From Escherichia phage vB_EcoM_CRP22: a stretch of 64,000 nt of DNA. Shown piece by piece: positions 8,434 to 13,148 of this stretch (position 1 is the stretch's first letter; each line of letters opens with the position of its first letter). The position numbers and the translations under genes were made by a program. The notes under the pieces were generated by a model, which saw nothing but the letters and a program-made list of their open reading frames with translations, ran no database searches and was not told where the DNA came from. Location of the stretch: sequence record OQ708377.1; one strand, given 5' to 3'.

Positions 8434-9849
8434 ATGAGCGAGTTATTTAAACATGCGCACCTTCATGTAGGTCGAACTGAAAATGGTGCTGTAAACCATA
8501 CTTCATCAATGTCTGCTCTGGTAGACTTCTACAAAGCCGCTGGCTCAAGCCGTAGCAATGTAGAAATCTTACCAGACCTGTTCTACAAAGCTTTGCGTGA
8601 GGATGTTGATGTTGCAGTTCGTATTTTACTGCATATGCGAGATGTACGAGAAGGTATGGGTGAGCGTAAAGCTTTCCGAACTGTTTTGCTTCAAACGATT
8701 GAAGATAAGGTTTTAGAACCTACACAGGTTCTTCGCATTATGGATAAGATTGCAGAACTTGGTCGTTTTGATGACTTCAAAATCTTCGTAGGTACTCGTT
8801 TCGAGACAGATGCCTTCAAACATTTAGAAGCAGCATTACTAGACCCTGCAACAGCAGGTTTAGCGGCTAAGTGGTTACCACGAGTAAAACCACGCCACAA
8901 ACAGTTTGTAAAACGTTTCTGTAAGTTTGCAAACTTAAGCGAGAAGGAGTATCGCACACTGTTATCTGCACTGTCTGATACGGTTGAGCAAAAAATCTCT
9001 GCTAATGAGTTTGGTAAGATTGACTACAGCAAGATTCCTTCACTCGCTGCTGCACGTTACCAAAAACTCTTTAACCGTAAAGATGGGGAACGTTACAAAG
9101 CTTACATCGAGTCCCTCTCAAAAGGTGAGGCTAAGATTAACGCTGGTGCTGTTTACCCATATGATGTGATTAAATCTATTAAGTATGGTAATGCAGATGT
9201 TGCTAACGAGCAGTGGAAAGCACTACCAAACTGGATGGCAGAAGGTGAAAACATCTTGTGTATGACTGATGTTTCAAGCTCAATGTCTTGGGTGAATCTT
9301 GGCTCAATTACTGCCCTTGATATTGGTGTATCACTTGCCTTGTATGTAGCAGAACGCAATACAGGTTGCTTTAAAGATGAGTTAATGGTCTATTCAACAA
9401 ACCCTCATTTCATTGAACTGAGTGGTGATTTACGAAACCGTCATCGTCAGGTGATGCGTCATGTTGAATATGGTTCAACTAACTTACAAGCAGCCTTTGA
9501 CCGCATTCTTGAGACAGGTAAGAGAAACAACTTGACTCAGAAAGATATGCCAAGTAAGCTTATCATCTTCTCCGATATGGAGTTCAATCAGGTTGATGGA
9601 GCTAACGGTCGTACAAACTTTGAAGCAATTCAGAGCAAGTACAAAAAAGCTGGATATGAGATGCCACAACTGGTATTCTGGTACTTAGCAAACCGTAATG
9701 GCACTTGCGAAGTGTCTGTTAAGGATAATGGTGTAGCAATGGTATCAGGGTTCTCTCCAGCCACTTTAAAAGCTCTGCTTGGTGGTGAGAAGTTTGACCC
9801 AATCAGCGTAATGCTCAAAGCAGTAATGATTGACCGTTACATCTGGTAA
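8434..9849 (+). CDS. von Willebrand factor A (vWA) domain protein; possible Ro60/TROVE-like protein
   Basis: 471 aa; MIDAS-type DxSxS motif (CMTDVSSSMSW) after a ~270-aa N-terminal region; Ro60 assignment is inference from context only. Confidence 0.6.
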   Translation: MSELFKHAHLHVGRTENGAVNHTSSMSALVDFYKAAGSSRSNVEILPDLFYKALREDVDVAVRILLHMRDVREGMGERKAFRTVLLQTIEDKVLEPTQVLRIMDKIAELGRFDDFKIFVGTRFETDAFKHLEAALLDPATAGLAAKWLPRVKPRHKQFVKRFCKFANLSEKEYRTLLSALSDTVEQKISANEFGKIDYSKIPSLAAARYQKLFNRKDGERYKAYIESLSKGEAKINAGAVYPYDVIKSIKYGNADVANEQWKALPNWMAEGENILCMTDVSSSMSWVNLGSITALDIGVSLALYVAERNTGCFKDELMVYSTNPHFIELSGDLRNRHRQVMRHVEYGSTNLQAAFDRILETGKRNNLTQKDMPSKLIIFSDMEFNQVDGANGRTNFEAIQSKYKKAGYEMPQLVFWYLANRNGTCEVSVKDNGVAMVSGFSPATLKALLGGEKFDPISVMLKAVMIDRYIW

Positions 9850-9867: not shown

Positions 9868-9896
9868 TTGACAATGTGTTTAATACCCTTTAATAT
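9868..9896 (+). promoter_or_regulatory. sigma70-like promoter embedded in an inverted repeat, upstream of tRNA array
   Basis: TTGACA - 17 nt - TAATAT; flanked by aagggtatt ... aataccctt. Confidence 0.5.
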
Positions 9897-10014
9897 GTTC
9901 TACATAGAAACGAAATGAGAGCTTTTCTAAGATACTGAAAAATATTTTAAAAAAGTTCTTGACAACCACTAAAAAATAATGTTAAAGTGGTTACATAGAG
10001 TTTGAAAAGTTTAT

Positions 10015-10176: not shown

Positions 10177-10267
10177 GTTTTGACAGAAGACCAATTACAG
10201 CAAGTTTAATCTTATTCATCTGACACGAAATCGGACAAAGAAGAGATTTGGTCTGGTCATTAAGAAT

Positions 10268-10344
10268 TGCGGGTATAGAGAAAGGGCGTCTCACATGTCT
10301 CATTAGCATGGTATCGGCAGGTTCGACTCCTGCACCCGCCTCCA
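10268..10344 (+). tRNA. tRNA-Met (anticodon CAT)
   Basis: Acceptor tgcgggt/acccgcc, anticodon loop ctCATta, T-arm gcagg-ttcgact-cctgc, CCA. Confidence 0.65.
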
Positions 10345-10421
10345 ATTTTGCAGAAGACCGTATTCAGCAACAAACTACTTTTTGCGGATAAAAGAAAAAA
10401 CACGGTCTGGCAATGTATTAA

Positions 10422-10497
10422 GGTTAGGAAGCACATAAGGTATGTGCGGTCGCCTGTTAAGCGAATGGCACAGGGTTCGAATCCCTGACTAACCGCA
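10422..10497 (+). tRNA. tRNA-Asn (anticodon GTT)
   Basis: Anticodon loop ctGTTaa, T-arm caggg-ttcgaat-ccctg; acceptor has one mismatch. Confidence 0.6.
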
Positions 10498-10506
10498 AAA
10501 TTAAAT

Positions 10507-10594
10507 GTGTCGTTATCCCGTAGATGGTAGCGGTGGGGACTGTAAATCCCTTGTCATTGAGACTCGGTAGGTTCGACTCCTACACGGCACACCA
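10507..10594 (+). tRNA. tRNA-Tyr (anticodon GTA), long variable arm
   Basis: Acceptor gtgtcgt/acggcac, anticodon stem gggga/tccct with loop ctGTAaa, long extra arm, T-arm gtagg-ttcgact-cctac, CCA. Confidence 0.7.
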
Positions 10595-10616
10595 ACACTT
10601 AGCGAGATACTTAGTT

Positions 10617-11045
10617 ATGAGAGATGAAGTATACAAATCACAACTTGGTATGAGTTTAGGAACTGCACAAAACAGACTAGTAAAAGATTTGCTATTCGAT
10701 TTTATATGTAAAACAAATCAAAATAGATGTTTTCAGTGCGGAAAAGAAATGACTAGGGATGATTTCTCCATCGAGCATAAGGTTCCGTGGAGACATAGTG
10801 AAAACGCAAAAGAGCTTTTCTTTTCACTGGATAATATCTCTTATAGTCATCTTAAATGTAATATGAAAGCAGCAAGACCAGCACAGATAAGTGAAAGAAA
10901 ACATAAAACAGTTGAACACGGAACTGCGTATAGCTATTACAAAGGCTGTAGATGCGAGGAGTGTAGGTTGGCTAAGAATGCTGCTAGCAGGAAGAACTAT
11001 AGCCCAGAAAGGCGTAGGAAGAAGTATTTAAGAAATGGCACATAG
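10617..11045 (+). CDS. HNH endonuclease (free-standing, inside tRNA array)
   Basis: 143 aa from internal ATG; CFQCGKEM...EHKVPW...HLKCN zinc-binding HNH-like motifs; the track ORF start at 10524 overlaps tRNA-Tyr and is rejected. Confidence 0.7.
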   Translation: MRDEVYKSQLGMSLGTAQNRLVKDLLFDFICKTNQNRCFQCGKEMTRDDFSIEHKVPWRHSENAKELFFSLDNISYSHLKCNMKAARPAQISERKHKTVEHGTAYSYYKGCRCEECRLAKNAASRKNYSPERRRKKYLRNGT

Positions 11046-11049
11046 TTTT

Positions 11050-11125
11050 GGGGTATTAGTTTAGACGGTTAAAATACGGGATTGTCTCTCCTGAGCCGCG
11101 AGTTCGATTCTCGCATACCTCGCCA
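11050..11125 (+). tRNA. tRNA-Asp (anticodon GTC)
   Basis: Acceptor ggggtat/atacctc, anticodon stem cggga/tcctg with loop ttGTCtc, T-arm gcgag-ttcgatt-ctcgc, CCA. Confidence 0.7.
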
Positions 11126-11273
11126 ATTTTGAGAGGGCTATTTAGCCCCTCCCTTAAAGAGTTATTACGAGTATTCTTTAAAGGAGCAGAAGACCAAATT
11201 CAGCAAGTTACTTAAAATTTCAAGCCAATTTAATTTTGAAAAATTTAAAACTTGGTCTGGCTTAACAAATTTA

Positions 11274-11404
11274 CAGAAGACCGTTTACAGCAAAACTTAA
11301 ACAATCTATTTCTCGGTAAAGAAAAGGCGAAGGTTCGATTCCTTCACTCGGCAGATGTCGAGTTGGTGTAATGGTAGCACTTAAGATGATAAACAACGGT
11401 CTGG
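11274..11404 (+). ncRNA. Candidate structured ncRNA: circularly permuted tRNA-like module enclosed by an 8-bp stem (possible Y-RNA/YrlA-like element)
   Basis: Linear order is stem strand agaccgtt, T-arm gaagg-ttcgatt-ccttc, acceptor 3' strand actcggc, 4-nt loop, acceptor 5' strand gtcgagt, D-arm gtgt-aatggta-gcac, stem strand aacggtct; the acceptor halves pair over 7 bp. Confidence 0.35.
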
Positions 11405-11405
11405 T

Positions 11406-11551
11406 AATTATCTTTGCAGTAGCTTATGTGGCTAATTATGTCGTCCCATGAGTGCCGATGAATTTCCTTAGCATGATTCTAGATTAGCTTAATAGGGAAT
11501 GACTCTACAGACCCTTTAGCAAGGTCTGCGTAGGTTACTGCAAAGATAATT
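11406..11551 (+). ncRNA. Candidate structured RNA domain closed by a 16-bp stem
   Basis: aattatctttgcagta (11406-11421) is the perfect reverse complement of tactgcaaagataatt (11535-11550), enclosing ~112 nt with an internal cagacc...ggtctg hairpin. Confidence 0.3.
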
Positions 11552-11555
11552 TAAT

Positions 11556-11631
11556 GGAAGTGTAGCAGAATGGTGATGCGGCAGACTTTTAATCTGACAG
11601 GCGATGGGTTCGAATCCATCCACTTCTACCA
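11556..11631 (+). tRNA. tRNA-Lys (anticodon TTT)
   Basis: Acceptor ggaagtg/cacttct, anticodon loop ctTTTaa, T-loop ttcgaat, CCA. Confidence 0.6.
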
Positions 11632-11790: not shown

Positions 11791-11805
11791 ATTTCAATAA
11801 AGTTG

Positions 11806-11834
11806 TTGACATTGAGATGTGACCACTTTATAGT
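11806..11834 (+). promoter_or_regulatory. sigma70-like promoter inside the tRNA array
   Basis: TTGACA - 17 nt - TATAGT, preceded by A-rich tract aaagttg. Confidence 0.5.
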
Positions 11835-12126
11835 AACTAAAATACTTCATAATATGTATAATTCAAACACCAATACATGAGTATTAGACGTAATGCAATG
11901 TGGGGAAATTTGTTGTACATATTCTGAATAGTTTTCGTTGCGTAGCGTCTATTTTGCAAATTTAAAATAAATGCAAACGACAATGTTTTTCTGGCAGTAG
12001 CTTGATAGGCTAAACACCAGTGAGGTCTTCCAATCCCTCATCAAAGAATTTGGCGTACTCGCCCACGGTATGATTAATAAGGTGGGCATCTTTAAGGGTT
12101 TTTAAGAGAGTCTTTAAAGATAATTA

Positions 12127-12208
12127 CGGGGCGTATCTCAGCTGTCTTCTAAACAGCCGTTAACCGAGTAAGTGGAGTATGCGGGTTCGAGTCCTGCCGC
12201 CTCGACCA
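12127..12208 (+). tRNA. Atypical tRNA-like gene, possibly Arg (anticodon TCT); D-arm not resolvable
   Basis: Acceptor cggggcg/cgcctcg, T-arm gcggg-ttcgagt-cctgc, CCA; clean stem gctgt/acagc with loop ctTCTaa but no canonical D-arm by eye. Confidence 0.4.
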
Positions 12209-12222
12209 ATTTTGGAGAAATC

Positions 12223-12570
12223 ATGAAAACTTGTATTAGGTGCAAACTTAGCAAGGATGAAAATGATTTCTACATGAAAGATGGTAGAAGAACTCATTCA
12301 TACTGTAAAAAGTGTGTTAATGAGCAAACCATAGAAAGACAAAGAGCACTTAAACTCTCAGCTATTGAGTACAAAGGTGGTGTTTGTCAGGATTGTGGTA
12401 AAAGGTATCATCCAGCAGTGTATGACTTCCATCATTTGAATCCTTCAGAGAAAGATTTTAACATTGCTCATAGAAGAAGTCTTAAGTTCTCTCAGGAGCT
12501 TAAGAACGAACTTGACAAATGTGTTTTGCTATGTTCAAATTGCCATAGGGTAAGACATGCAAAGTATTAG
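12223..12570 (+). CDS. HNH endonuclease (free-standing, inside tRNA array)
   Basis: 115 aa from internal ATG (MKTCIRCK...); CxxC pairs and FHHLNP...LLCSNCHRVRH HNH motif; the track start at 12172 overlaps the preceding tRNA-like gene. Confidence 0.7.
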   Translation: MKTCIRCKLSKDENDFYMKDGRRTHSYCKKCVNEQTIERQRALKLSAIEYKGGVCQDCGKRYHPAVYDFHHLNPSEKDFNIAHRRSLKFSQELKNELDKCVLLCSNCHRVRHAKY

Positions 12571-12893: not shown

Positions 12894-13148
12894 TAATAAG
12901 ATTTAAAGCCAAGCTTCATTCGGATGTTGCTTTGGTATCCCTCGTGTATTGTCGTACACACTGATAAAGCACCTGGTAGGTGTCACGGAGAAGAGATAAT
13001 ATCAAGCTCTCCAAAGGTTCTAGTCACCGGATTAAACAAGACTATGCAAAGACCAATTTAGGTCTTTTTAGAGGGCTTCTAAGGTTATTACAGCTTGTTG
13101 TGGAACCTTGTTGCTTAGGTTCTTAGAAGTTCTCTAAAAAGATTTAAT

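What the first reader, a model, noticed from the sequence alone, without database searches (positions are those of the whole stretch)
11406..11551. 16-bp perfect inverted repeat enclosing a ~112-nt domain just upstream of tRNA-Lys
aattatctttgcagta (11406-11421) and tactgcaaagataatt (11535-11550) are exact reverse complements. The enclosed region has no ORF and contains an internal cagacc...ggtctg hairpin. A stem this long is unlikely by chance in AT-rich DNA and suggests a structured RNA or an insertion with terminal inverted repeats.
Basis: seen in the sequence. Interest (0 to 1): 0.55.

Follow-up and report, generated by a model that had tools for sequence, protein, structure and literature searches.

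The report
Conserved structured RNA in phage tRNA operon
The inverted repeat is the closing stem of a conserved, roughly 146-nt folded non-coding RNA in the tRNA operon of a Felix O1-like phage, next to a tRNA-mimicking RNA and downstream of a Ro60-like RNA-binding protein gene, so it is probably one of that protein's long-suspected but never mapped partner RNAs, not a mobile insertion.

Summary
The repeat is real. A perfect 16-nt repeat is expected about 0.02 times per window.

The window is a Felixounavirus. The stem closes a 146-nt domain that ends 4 nt before tRNA-Lys(UUU). Orthologues in at least five lineages keep this architecture: a long stem, variable hairpins, and a last hairpin with the loop CYUWAGCAA. 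Sequences diverge but pairing is kept: 98% of cells are paired, and 11 of 28 pairs changed on both sides (0/500 shuffles). G·U pairs and model scores (130 vs 30 bits) place it on the tRNA strand.

It is single-copy, has no target duplication and is absent from E. coli genomes, so it is not a mobile insertion.

Context:
- A gene 1.5 kb upstream has a Ro60 fold.
- The adjacent 11273-11405 is a circularly permuted tRNA mimic of YrlA type.
- Four "CAGCAA" stem modules lie in the cluster. This module family accompanies Ro-like genes in many phages and is not in Rfam.

Best reading: a processed, nuclease-resistant accessory RNA of a phage Ro/Y-RNA-like system. Any function with Ro is inferred, not shown.

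The parts
11406..11428 (+). P1, the 5' strand of the 23-bp closing stem.
   Evidence: Covariation.
11529..11551 (+). P1, the 3' strand of the closing stem. Its last 16 nt are the exact repeat.
11430..11456 (+). H1, the first inner hairpin. Its sequence varies between alleles. It contains GCUAA (11431-11435), the candidate pseudoknot partner of the H3 loop.
   Evidence: MFE fold. Loop/partner complementarity with a U-A to A-U switch. Suggestive only.
11462..11500 (+). H2, the second inner hairpin. Its apical CUAG (11479-11482) is also present in alleles v2 and v3.
11508..11528 (+). H3, the 'mini hairpin' CAGACC-CUUUAGCAA-GGUCUG. The loop C(C/U)U(U/A)AGCAA is conserved in all lineages, the stem covaries, and it abuts the P1 3' strand.
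   Evidence: 44 forward hits, 0 reverse, one per genome..
11552..11631 (+). The UAAU linker followed by tRNA-Lys(UUU). RNase P cleavage at 11555/11556 would create the 3' end of the module.
   Evidence: Adjacency is conserved in L035, L036 and L037. The cleavage itself is inferred.
11273..11405 (+). M4, a circularly permuted tRNA-like RNA of YrlA type. Components: closing stem AGACCG/CGGUCU, CAGCAA, a V hairpin, T arm 11329-11345, a 7-bp acceptor hairpin (11346-11352 with 11357-11363) and D arm 11366-11380.
11186..11261 (+). M3, a simple CAGCAA-motif stem module.
10350..10411 (+). M2, a CAGCAA-motif stem module in the spacer between tRNA-Met and tRNA-Asn.
10183..10257 (+). M1, a CAGCAA-motif stem module in the spacer between tRNA-Glu and tRNA-Met.
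8434..9849 (+). Gene for a Ro60-like protein (DUF2828 helical ring plus a vWA domain with a DxSxS MIDAS motif).
   Evidence: Pfam. AF2 model with pLDDT 89.9. The top 11 Foldseek PDB hits are all Ro60. Annotated 'Ro-like RNA binding protein' in mycobacteriophages.
9868..9988 (+). Two sigma-70-like promoter matches (9868-9896 and 9959-9988) upstream of the first tRNA. No terminator match occurs before 11790.
   Evidence: These are consensus matches only.

Best explanation
The repeat is helix P1 of a roughly 146-nt non-coding RNA domain, which I call 'module C'. It is transcribed as part of the phage's polycistronic tRNA precursor.

Proposed steps:
1. RNase P cutting at the 5' end of tRNA-Lys(UUU) leaves the module with a 4-nt 3' tail.
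2. The 23-bp P1 clamps both ends and should protect the RNA from 3' exonucleases. It may also be an RNase III site.
3. Inside P1, three hairpins fold into a compact body. The invariant loop of the last hairpin (CYUWAGCAA) probably pairs with GCUWA, just after the P1 5' strand.
4. The released RNA most likely acts as an accessory RNA of the phage's Ro60-like protein. It would act alongside four neighbouring 'CAGCAA' stem modules, one of which (M4) is a YrlA-type tRNA mimic. In effect it would be a lineage-specific, fast-diverging Y-RNA-like module or decoy.

Shown: the structure, its strand, its conservation and covariation, its genomic context and the Ro60 fold of the neighbouring protein. Inferred: transcription and processing, the pseudoknot, and any interaction with the Ro-like protein.
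For: Structure and selection:
- The fold gives -54.3 kcal/mol, z = -5.46.
- On 18 distinct sequences from four structural variants, 98.4% of cells are paired and 11 of 28 pairs changed on both sides. No shuffle of 500 reached this. Slid controls gave 24-48% paired and 0-2 double changes.
- The same architecture is predicted in a fifth lineage, Yersinia phage P778.

Strand:
- G·U pairs are present in P1.
- The + strand folds at -54.3 against -42.4 kcal/mol for the - strand.
- The covariance model scores 129.8 bits on + against 30 bits on -.

Functional constraint beyond a plain stem:
- The H3 loop is invariant and occurs once per genome, with 44 forward hits and 0 reverse.
- Two alleles share length and architecture. 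Their interiors are only about 52% identical, while the flanks are 97% and 89% identical.

Context:
- The module lies inside the tRNA unit, with promoter-like sites upstream and no terminator match.
- It always sits directly 5' of tRNA-Lys(UUU).
- It abuts M4, a permuted tRNA mimic that ARAGORN calls a tRNA once it is re-permuted in silico.
- The upstream protein has a Ro60 fold.
- CAGCAA modules accompany Ro-like genes: 200 hits on the gene strand against 3 on the other strand, and 3.8 in shuffles. A motif-first search found a Ro-like gene in 45 of 120 stretches, with strand agreement 208 to 2.
- The L036 orthologue of module C is closed by an M-like stem carrying CAGCAU.
- H3 keeps the AG...CU-G stem signature and AGCAA.

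Literature: Bas63 gp130, the Ro-like protein of another Felixounavirus, counters the Ppl defence. Those authors only guessed that partner Y RNAs hide among the tRNA genes (PMC11482910).
Against: - There are no expression, end-mapping or binding data.
- Module C lacks the canonical Ro-binding motifs GGUCCGA and GNCGAAN0-1G.
- In Felix-type phages it is not closed by a strict CAGCAA stem.
- A generalised AGCAA-loop hairpin is not enriched in distant Ro-like loci: 72 against 52, with a control of 51 against 29.
- Module C is confined to Ounavirinae-like lineages, whereas the Ro-like gene and the CAGCAA modules are far more widespread.
- Phages SP116 and FG1m keep the Ro-like gene but have lost module C, so it is dispensable.
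- Each loop/partner complementarity taken alone is not significant. About 37% of shuffles reach 5 nt.
Confidence: 0.5

Rival explanations
1. It is purely a cis-acting processing or insulating element. The long duplex would be an RNase III-type processing stalk, or an exonuclease block. Its job would be to separate the upstream tRNA mimic from tRNA-Lys and define their ends. The enclosed RNA would have no function of its own.
For: A near-perfect duplex of about 22-23 bp (two helical turns) is kept in four lineages. A second long stem lies in the same position relative to tRNA-Leu(UAG), at about 13058-13147, with the same ...AAAGAU..UUUAAU ending. Isolate SP116 lost the module and is viable.
Against: A processing stalk would not need a roughly 100-nt interior of constant size. 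It would not need an invariant 9-nt loop, a conserved apical CUAG, or a covarying inner hairpin. In L036 the stem is interrupted by internal loops.
Confidence: 0.25
2. It is a cis-regulator of tRNA-Lys(UUU). A structured 5' leader would tune RNase P access or the yield of this tRNA, which is a frequent target of anticodon nucleases.
For: Direct adjacency (0-12 nt) to tRNA-Lys(UUU) is the one positional feature kept in every lineage, even where M4 is elsewhere or absent.
Against: ESCO50 keeps the module although tRNA-Lys is truncated. L050 has tRNA-Lys(UUU) without any such leader. No ligand-binding or attenuator features were found, and no U tract.
Confidence: 0.1
3. It is a miniature mobile element or insertion bounded by terminal inverted repeats.
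For: It has perfect 16-bp terminal repeats. Two unrelated-looking interiors (alleles v1 and v2) lie between identical ends.
Against: There is one copy per genome at one locus, with no other copy of the arms in the window and no target-site duplication. It has no match in E. coli genomes. The arms change by compensatory substitutions and use G·U pairs. Losses are T-loop or motif recombination deletions, not excisions.
Confidence: 0.02
4. It is a DNA-level palindrome, such as a protein-binding site, an origin or a cruciform.
For: It is the longest inverted repeat in the window.
Against: Pairing is complete only on the + strand, because the G·U pairs become A·C on the other strand. The strand asymmetry is 130 against 30 bits and 12 kcal/mol. 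The interior hairpins are conserved, and the location is inside an RNA operon.
Confidence: 0.03

Closest known systems
Bacterial and phage Y RNAs, especially YrlA (Chen et al. 2014, PMC4201824) and Yrl1/Yrl2 of Thermus phage phiLo (PMC12135203)
   Same: These are non-coding RNAs encoded within a few kb of a Ro60-type gene on the same strand. Their 5' and 3' ends pair into a long stem that closes a variable 'effector' module. The neighbouring M4 has exactly the YrlA layout: stem, V, T arm, acceptor-like hairpin, D arm. Like M. smegmatis YrlA it has a 7-bp acceptor stem, and orthologues in other phages encode CCA.
   Different: The partner protein belongs to the DUF2828 branch and resembles Ro60 only at the fold level. 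No GGUCCGA or GNCGAA motif is present. The recurring signature is instead RG-NNNN-NNUN-CAGCAA...CY-G. The RNAs are embedded in a tRNA operon in multiple copies. Module C itself has no tRNA-like domain.
Stable RNAs C and D (species 1 and 2) of the phage T4 tRNA cluster (recalled from my own knowledge, not tested here)
   Same: These are non-tRNA structured RNAs co-transcribed with, and processed out of, a phage tRNA cluster. Their function is unknown.
   Different: No sequence or structure comparison was possible with these tools. T4 has no Ro-like gene.
RNase III processing stalks of rRNA operons and phage T7 early transcripts (established knowledge)
   Same: A long duplex formed by sequences flanking an RNA domain, placed between mature RNAs of a polycistronic precursor.
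   Different: Here the enclosed domain is only about 100 nt and carries its own conserved loops. Cleavage is untested.

Membership tests
Y RNA (Ro60-associated non-coding RNA) | Encoded near a Ro60 orthologue, on the same strand | tested here: met
   The module lies 1.56 kb downstream of ORF 8434-9849 on the same strand. The ORF's model matches Ro60 structures over its full length, with E from 1e-8 to 3e-6 and TM 0.52-0.65.
Y RNA (Ro60-associated non-coding RNA) | The 5' and 3' ends pair into a long stem that closes internal loops or modules | tested here: met
   The 23-bp P1 is supported by covariation.
Y RNA (Ro60-associated non-coding RNA) | Conserved Ro-binding motif (GGUCCGA bulged helix, or GNCGAAN0-1G / CGAA) | tested here: not met
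   A regex over 10177-11555 found none in module C. The single GGCGAAGG at 11326 lies at the V/T junction of M4, and the L036 orthologue lacks it.
Y RNA (Ro60-associated non-coding RNA) | Physically bound by the Ro60-type protein | not testable with these tools
   This needs RIP/CLIP or EMSA.
YrlA (tRNA-like bacterial Y RNA) | Permuted tRNA-like domain: V loop, T arm, acceptor-like hairpin and D arm enclosed by a stem | tested here: not met
   Module C has no T loop or D loop. The adjacent M4 (11273-11405) does meet this feature.
CAGCAA-motif stem modules (family defined here) | A 6-bp stem starting RG, then 4 nt, then CAGCAA, then the 3' partner followed by G | tested here: inconclusive
   P1 of the Felix-type module C fails the strict pattern. 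The L036 orthologue has a degenerate version with CAGCAU. H3 keeps AG...CU-G and AGCAA but lacks the leading C and any interior. The generalised form is not enriched elsewhere.
MITE / insertion bounded by terminal inverted repeats | Several copies, target-site duplication, and empty sites in relatives | tested here: not met
   It is single-copy, the flanks GGUCUGGU and UAAUGGAA are unrelated, and losses are larger recombination deletions.
Intrinsic terminator | A G+C-rich hairpin followed by a U run | tested here: not met
   The scan found no terminator-like site here. The stem is followed by UAAU and then a tRNA.
Any curated Rfam family | Score at or near the family's gathering threshold | tested here: not met
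   Searches returned only chance snoRNA-level hits at E of 3 or more. One search found only tRNAs in nine related loci.
RNase III substrate | About 20 bp or more of regular duplex, and cleavage by RNase III | tested here: inconclusive
   The duplex length criterion is met. Cleavage cannot be tested here.

The most novel reading that the evidence does not exclude
Module C, its neighbour M4 and the M1-M3 hairpins could be the missing RNA partners of a large, unstudied branch of phage Ro60-like proteins (DUF2828). On this reading the 'CAGCAA' stem is a new Ro-binding scaffold. It would carry interchangeable cargo: nothing, a tRNA mimic with CCA, or large folded domains. Module C would be a rapidly diversifying decoy or effector cargo used against host defences such as Ppl.
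Probability: 0.35. Interest if true: 0.8.

Novelty: new variant of a known kind. Interest (0 to 1): 0.6.

Why it matters
Ro60-like genes occur in about 700 sequenced phages, including Felix O1, Listeria A511-like, KVP40-like, staphylococcal, campylobacter and cluster L mycobacteriophages. One of these proteins has just been shown to counter a bacterial defence system, yet its RNA partners are unknown.

This analysis gives exact coordinates and structures for candidate partners in a tractable E. coli/Salmonella phage. It also gives a simple sequence signature that finds hundreds more. That makes the question "what does a phage Ro RNP bind and do?" directly testable.

It also shows that the unannotated "gaps" in phage tRNA clusters hold conserved structured RNAs. 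Some of these are currently mis-annotated as hypothetical proteins.

Tried and rejected
- **Rfam.** Scans of the cluster, of the gap at E up to 10, and of nine related loci found no family apart from tRNA.
- **Two-piece or permuted tmRNA for 11329-11555.** Rejected. ARAGORN finds no tmRNA. The acceptor lacks G3:U70 and there is no plausible tag frame. The permuted cloverleaf is explained by the YrlA layout.
- **Split or intron-containing tRNA, or tRNA pseudogene.** Rejected for the same reason.
- **Terminator or attenuator.** There is no U tract.
- **MITE.** See the rival explanations.
- **Sequence-level link of the protein to Ro60.** Single-sequence and profile searches of PDB sequences found nothing. 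Only the fold search did.
- **Trimmed covariance model of the CAGCAA core (R2).** It failed to recover the real modules because of their long interiors, so it was not used as evidence.
- **Generalised AGCAA-loop hairpin.** Not enriched in distant loci.
- **UUGUUGCU loop of the second long stem as a general partner motif.** It is not conserved beyond Felix-like phages and L035.
- **Covariance model R1 of module C.** It found no further homologues in about 70 distant loci, and it missed P778.
- **Literature.** The Chen 2014 supplements and the 2020 Annual Review were not available. No transcriptome of a Felixounavirus was found.

Full report
**Observation.** The window carries AATTATCTTTGCAGTA at 11406-11421. 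Its exact reverse complement is at 11536-11551, one base to the right of the coordinates given. With G·U pairs the helix extends to 23 bp, 11406-11428 with 11529-11551. It encloses about 100 nt that fold into three hairpins. The MFE is -54.3 kcal/mol with z = -5.46. A perfect 16-nt inverted repeat within 300 nt occurs once in the window, against a mean of 0.02 in 200 shuffles, and it is the longest in the 64 kb. The stem ends 4 nt before tRNA-Lys(UUU) at 11556. No ORF of 25 aa or more lies inside it.

**Where this is.** The window is a Felix O1-like myovirus (Felixounavirus). About 250 phage records match the region. The element lies in a 430-nt tRNA-free gap, 11126-11555, inside a 25-tRNA cluster. 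Almost no record annotates anything there. A few place "hypothetical proteins" on it.

**It is a conserved RNA structure on the tRNA strand.**
- Felixounaviruses carry two alleles of the element, v1 (this window, 59 records) and v2 (the majority).
- The two alleles have the same length and the same outermost stem bases.
- Their interiors are only about 52% identical, while the flanks are 97% and 89% identical.
- Further orthologues exist in three more distant lineages, whose Ro-like proteins are 62%, 56% and 53% identical: L035, L036 and Yersinia phage P778 (L037).
- In all of them the element sits directly 5' of tRNA-Lys(UUU).
- All fold into a 12-25-bp closing stem, variable hairpins, and a final hairpin abutting the 3' strand of the closing stem. 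That hairpin carries the loop C(C/U)U(U/A)AGCAA.
- The final hairpin occurs exactly once per genome, with 44 hits on the forward strand and none on the reverse.

On an 18-sequence alignment, 98.4% of cells are paired and 11 of 28 pairs show changes on both sides. None of 500 shuffles reached this. Structures slid by one to three columns gave 24-48% paired and 0-2 such pairs.

Several P1 pairs are G·U and would be A·C on the other strand. The - strand folds 12 kcal/mol worse. A covariance model scores 129.8 bits on + against 30 bits on -. The structure is therefore RNA, on the same strand as the tRNAs.

Promoter-like sites lie upstream of the first tRNA (9868-9896 and 9959-9988), and no terminator-like site intervenes. 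The element should therefore be part of the polycistronic tRNA precursor. This step is inferred.

**A possible pseudoknot.** The conserved loop of the last hairpin is complementary to 5-7 nt lying just after the 5' strand of P1.
- UUAGC pairs with GCUAA in v1 and P778.
- UAAGC(AA) pairs with (UU)GCUUA in v2, L035 and L036.

This amounts to a U-A to A-U switch at one position, spread across lineages. Each match alone is not significant, so the pairing is suggestive only.

**Not a mobile element.**
- There is one copy per genome at one locus.
- The arms occur nowhere else in the window.
- The flanks share no duplication.
- There is no match in 5,426 complete E. coli genomes.
- Relatives lacking it lost it by larger deletions. 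SP116 recombined the T loop of the upstream tRNA mimic with that of tRNA-Lys. VSe11 and ESCO50 show other recombination deletions.

These deletions also show that the element is dispensable for growth in the laboratory.

**Surroundings.**

(a) ORF 8434-9849, 1.5 kb upstream on the same strand, hits DUF2828 and DUF7788 and has a DxSxS MIDAS motif. Its AlphaFold model has pLDDT 89.9 and pTM 0.89. Over its full length the model matches only Ro60 structures among its top 11 PDB hits. These include Thermus phage phiLo Ro60 and the Xenopus, human and Deinococcus proteins. Sequence searches against PDB found nothing. Homologues occur in about 700 phage records and are annotated "Ro-like RNA binding protein" in cluster L-type mycobacteriophages. 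A 2024 preprint reports that the orthologue in Felixounavirus Bas63 (gp130) resembles Ro60 and counters the Ppl defence. Its authors only speculate that some neighbouring "tRNA genes" are Y RNAs (PMC11482910).

(b) The 133 nt immediately upstream (11273-11405) fold as a circularly permuted cloverleaf. The order is closing stem, V hairpin, T arm (GAAGGUUCGAUUCCUUC), a 7-bp acceptor stem closed by a 5-nt loop (discriminator A followed by GAU), and D arm. This is the layout of bacterial YrlA Y RNAs (PMC4201824). After in-silico re-permutation, ARAGORN calls it a tRNA.

(c) The stem closing this mimic recurs four times in the cluster: M1 10183-10257, M2 10350-10411, M3 11186-11261 and M4. The consensus is [RC][ANA][AGACCR][WWUW]CAGCAA...[YGGUCU]G[GY], and the variable stem position covaries.

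**The CAGCAA module is widespread and tied to Ro-like genes.**
- A strict pattern (RGNNNN-NNNN-CAGCAH ... 6-bp partner-G) hits 200 times on the gene strand, in 58 of 75 non-Felix loci fetched through the protein.
- The same pattern hits 3 times on the other strand and about 3.8 times in shuffles.
- Modules fall into three size classes. Those under 80 nt are simple hairpins.
- Of the 66 modules of 80-160 nt, 45 have a T loop and the YrlA-type layout, some with an encoded CCA.
- Those over 160 nt are large multi-branched RNAs.
- A search starting from the RNA motif alone returned at least 120 viral stretches. Of these, 45 contained a Ro-like gene, including 25 of the 51 stretches of 10-20 kb. 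Modules lay on the gene strand 208 times and on the other strand twice.
- The arrangement extends to mycobacteriophage Gabriela, which has three modules directly after the gene, the middle one tRNA-like. A KVP40-like vibriophage also carries a module.

Rfam has no model for these modules. Chen et al. searched only genomes annotated with TROVE proteins, and the mycobacteriophages they name belong to a different group. Within the literature I could search, this family is undescribed.

**How module C relates to that family.** In Felix-type phages its closing stem does not fit the strict pattern. The links are as follows.
- The L036 orthologue is closed by a degenerate version: UUGCA-AA-GAAUC-UUU-CAGCAU ... 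GUGCUG-CGA-GAUUC-CC-UGCAA.
- The conserved inner hairpin keeps the AG...CU-G stem signature and AGCAA.
- A second long-stem RNA before tRNA-Leu(UAG), at about 13058-13147, encloses an M-like hairpin.

Against this link:
- A generalised AGCAA-loop hairpin is not enriched in distant loci.
- Module C itself is confined to Ounavirinae-like phages.

**Mechanism.** I consider it most likely (about 0.5) that module C is a processed, exonuclease-resistant accessory RNA. RNase P at tRNA-Lys would define its 3' end. The 23-bp P1 would clamp the ends and might be cut by RNase III. A compact three-hairpin body would display conserved loops. The RNA would work with the Ro60-like protein alongside M1-M4. 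Its fast-diverging interior suggests a specificity or decoy role.

The main rival (0.25) is that it is only a processing or insulating stalk. The constant-size interior with invariant loops argues against that. A leader regulating tRNA-Lys (0.1), a DNA palindrome (0.03) and a mobile insertion (0.02) are less likely.

**Novelty and verdict.** The "structured RNA" reading is supported and the "TIR insertion" reading is not. The element is best filed as a new variant of a known kind, namely Y-RNA-like RNAs accompanying Ro60-type proteins. It differs in three ways: it lacks the canonical Ro-binding motif and any tRNA-like domain, it sits in a tRNA operon, and it has no curated family. The larger by-product, the CAGCAA module family and its YrlA-type members, is the more significant lead.

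Noticed in passing
window 10183-10257, 10350-10411, 11186-11261, 11273-11405; also L035-L037, L050-L239: A recurring stem module, [RG NNNN][NNUN]CAGCAA...[NNNN CY]G, occurs four times in this tRNA cluster. It also occurs in arrays next to Ro-like (DUF2828) genes in many unrelated phages. Counts are 200 hits on the gene strand against 3 on the other, and a motif-first search gave at least 120 viral stretches. It is not in Rfam.
   Followed up: yes
window 11273-11405: A circularly permuted tRNA-like RNA of YrlA type with a 7-bp acceptor hairpin. ARAGORN calls it a tRNA after in-silico re-permutation. Orthologues in L036, L055 and L073 encode CCA after the acceptor 3' strand, which hints at RNase P cleavage and a free CCA end.
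   Followed up: partly
window about 13049-13147: A second long-stem RNA with a closing stem of up to about 29 bp (MFE) lies directly 5' of tRNA-Leu(UAG). It ends in ...AAAAAGAUUUAAU, like module C, and is preceded by a degenerate M-like hairpin, AAAGACCAAUUUAGGUCUUU. It is kept with compensatory changes in L020, L022 and L035. In L008, L012 and L019 it is replaced by unrelated sequence. Its inner loop, UGUUGCUU, is complementary to the AAGCAA of module C's loop and to CAGCAA(CAA), but this motif is not conserved more widely.
   Followed up: partly
window 12127-12205 and 12172-12570: Rfam calls a tRNA at 12127-12205 (31.2 bits, just above the gathering score) that ARAGORN misses. It overlaps the start of an HNH-endonuclease-like ORF. 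A second HNH-like ORF lies at 10524-11045, overlapping tRNA-Tyr (10507-10594) and ending just before tRNA-Asp.
   Followed up: no
window 11791-12130: A strong promoter-like site at 11806-11834 (11 of 12 matches) is followed by a structured, unannotated leader of about 300 nt (z = -3.3). The leader contains a 27-nt imperfect inverted repeat (11835-11861 with 11913-11939) and weak sub-threshold tmRNA-model hits.
   Followed up: no
L004 (SP116), L033 (ESCO50), L034 (VSe11): The repeated T loops and CAGAAGACC stems act as recombination substrates. Natural isolates carry deletions that fuse M4 to tRNA-Lys, fuse M2 to M4, or truncate tRNA-Lys. These deletions reshape the tRNA set.
   Followed up: partly
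window 11131-11186: Two overlapping hairpins lie right after tRNA-Asp: GAGGGCU-AUUU-AGCCCCUC and CUCCCUUAAAGA...UCUUUAAAGGAG. Counterparts sit at the same place in L035 and P778. Their role is unknown.
   Followed up: no
L052 4234-4308 and 2820-2894: A distant Ro-like-encoding phage contig carries a tRNA with a CUA (amber-reading) anticodon and an odd tRNA with a two-base anticodon call.
   Followed up: no
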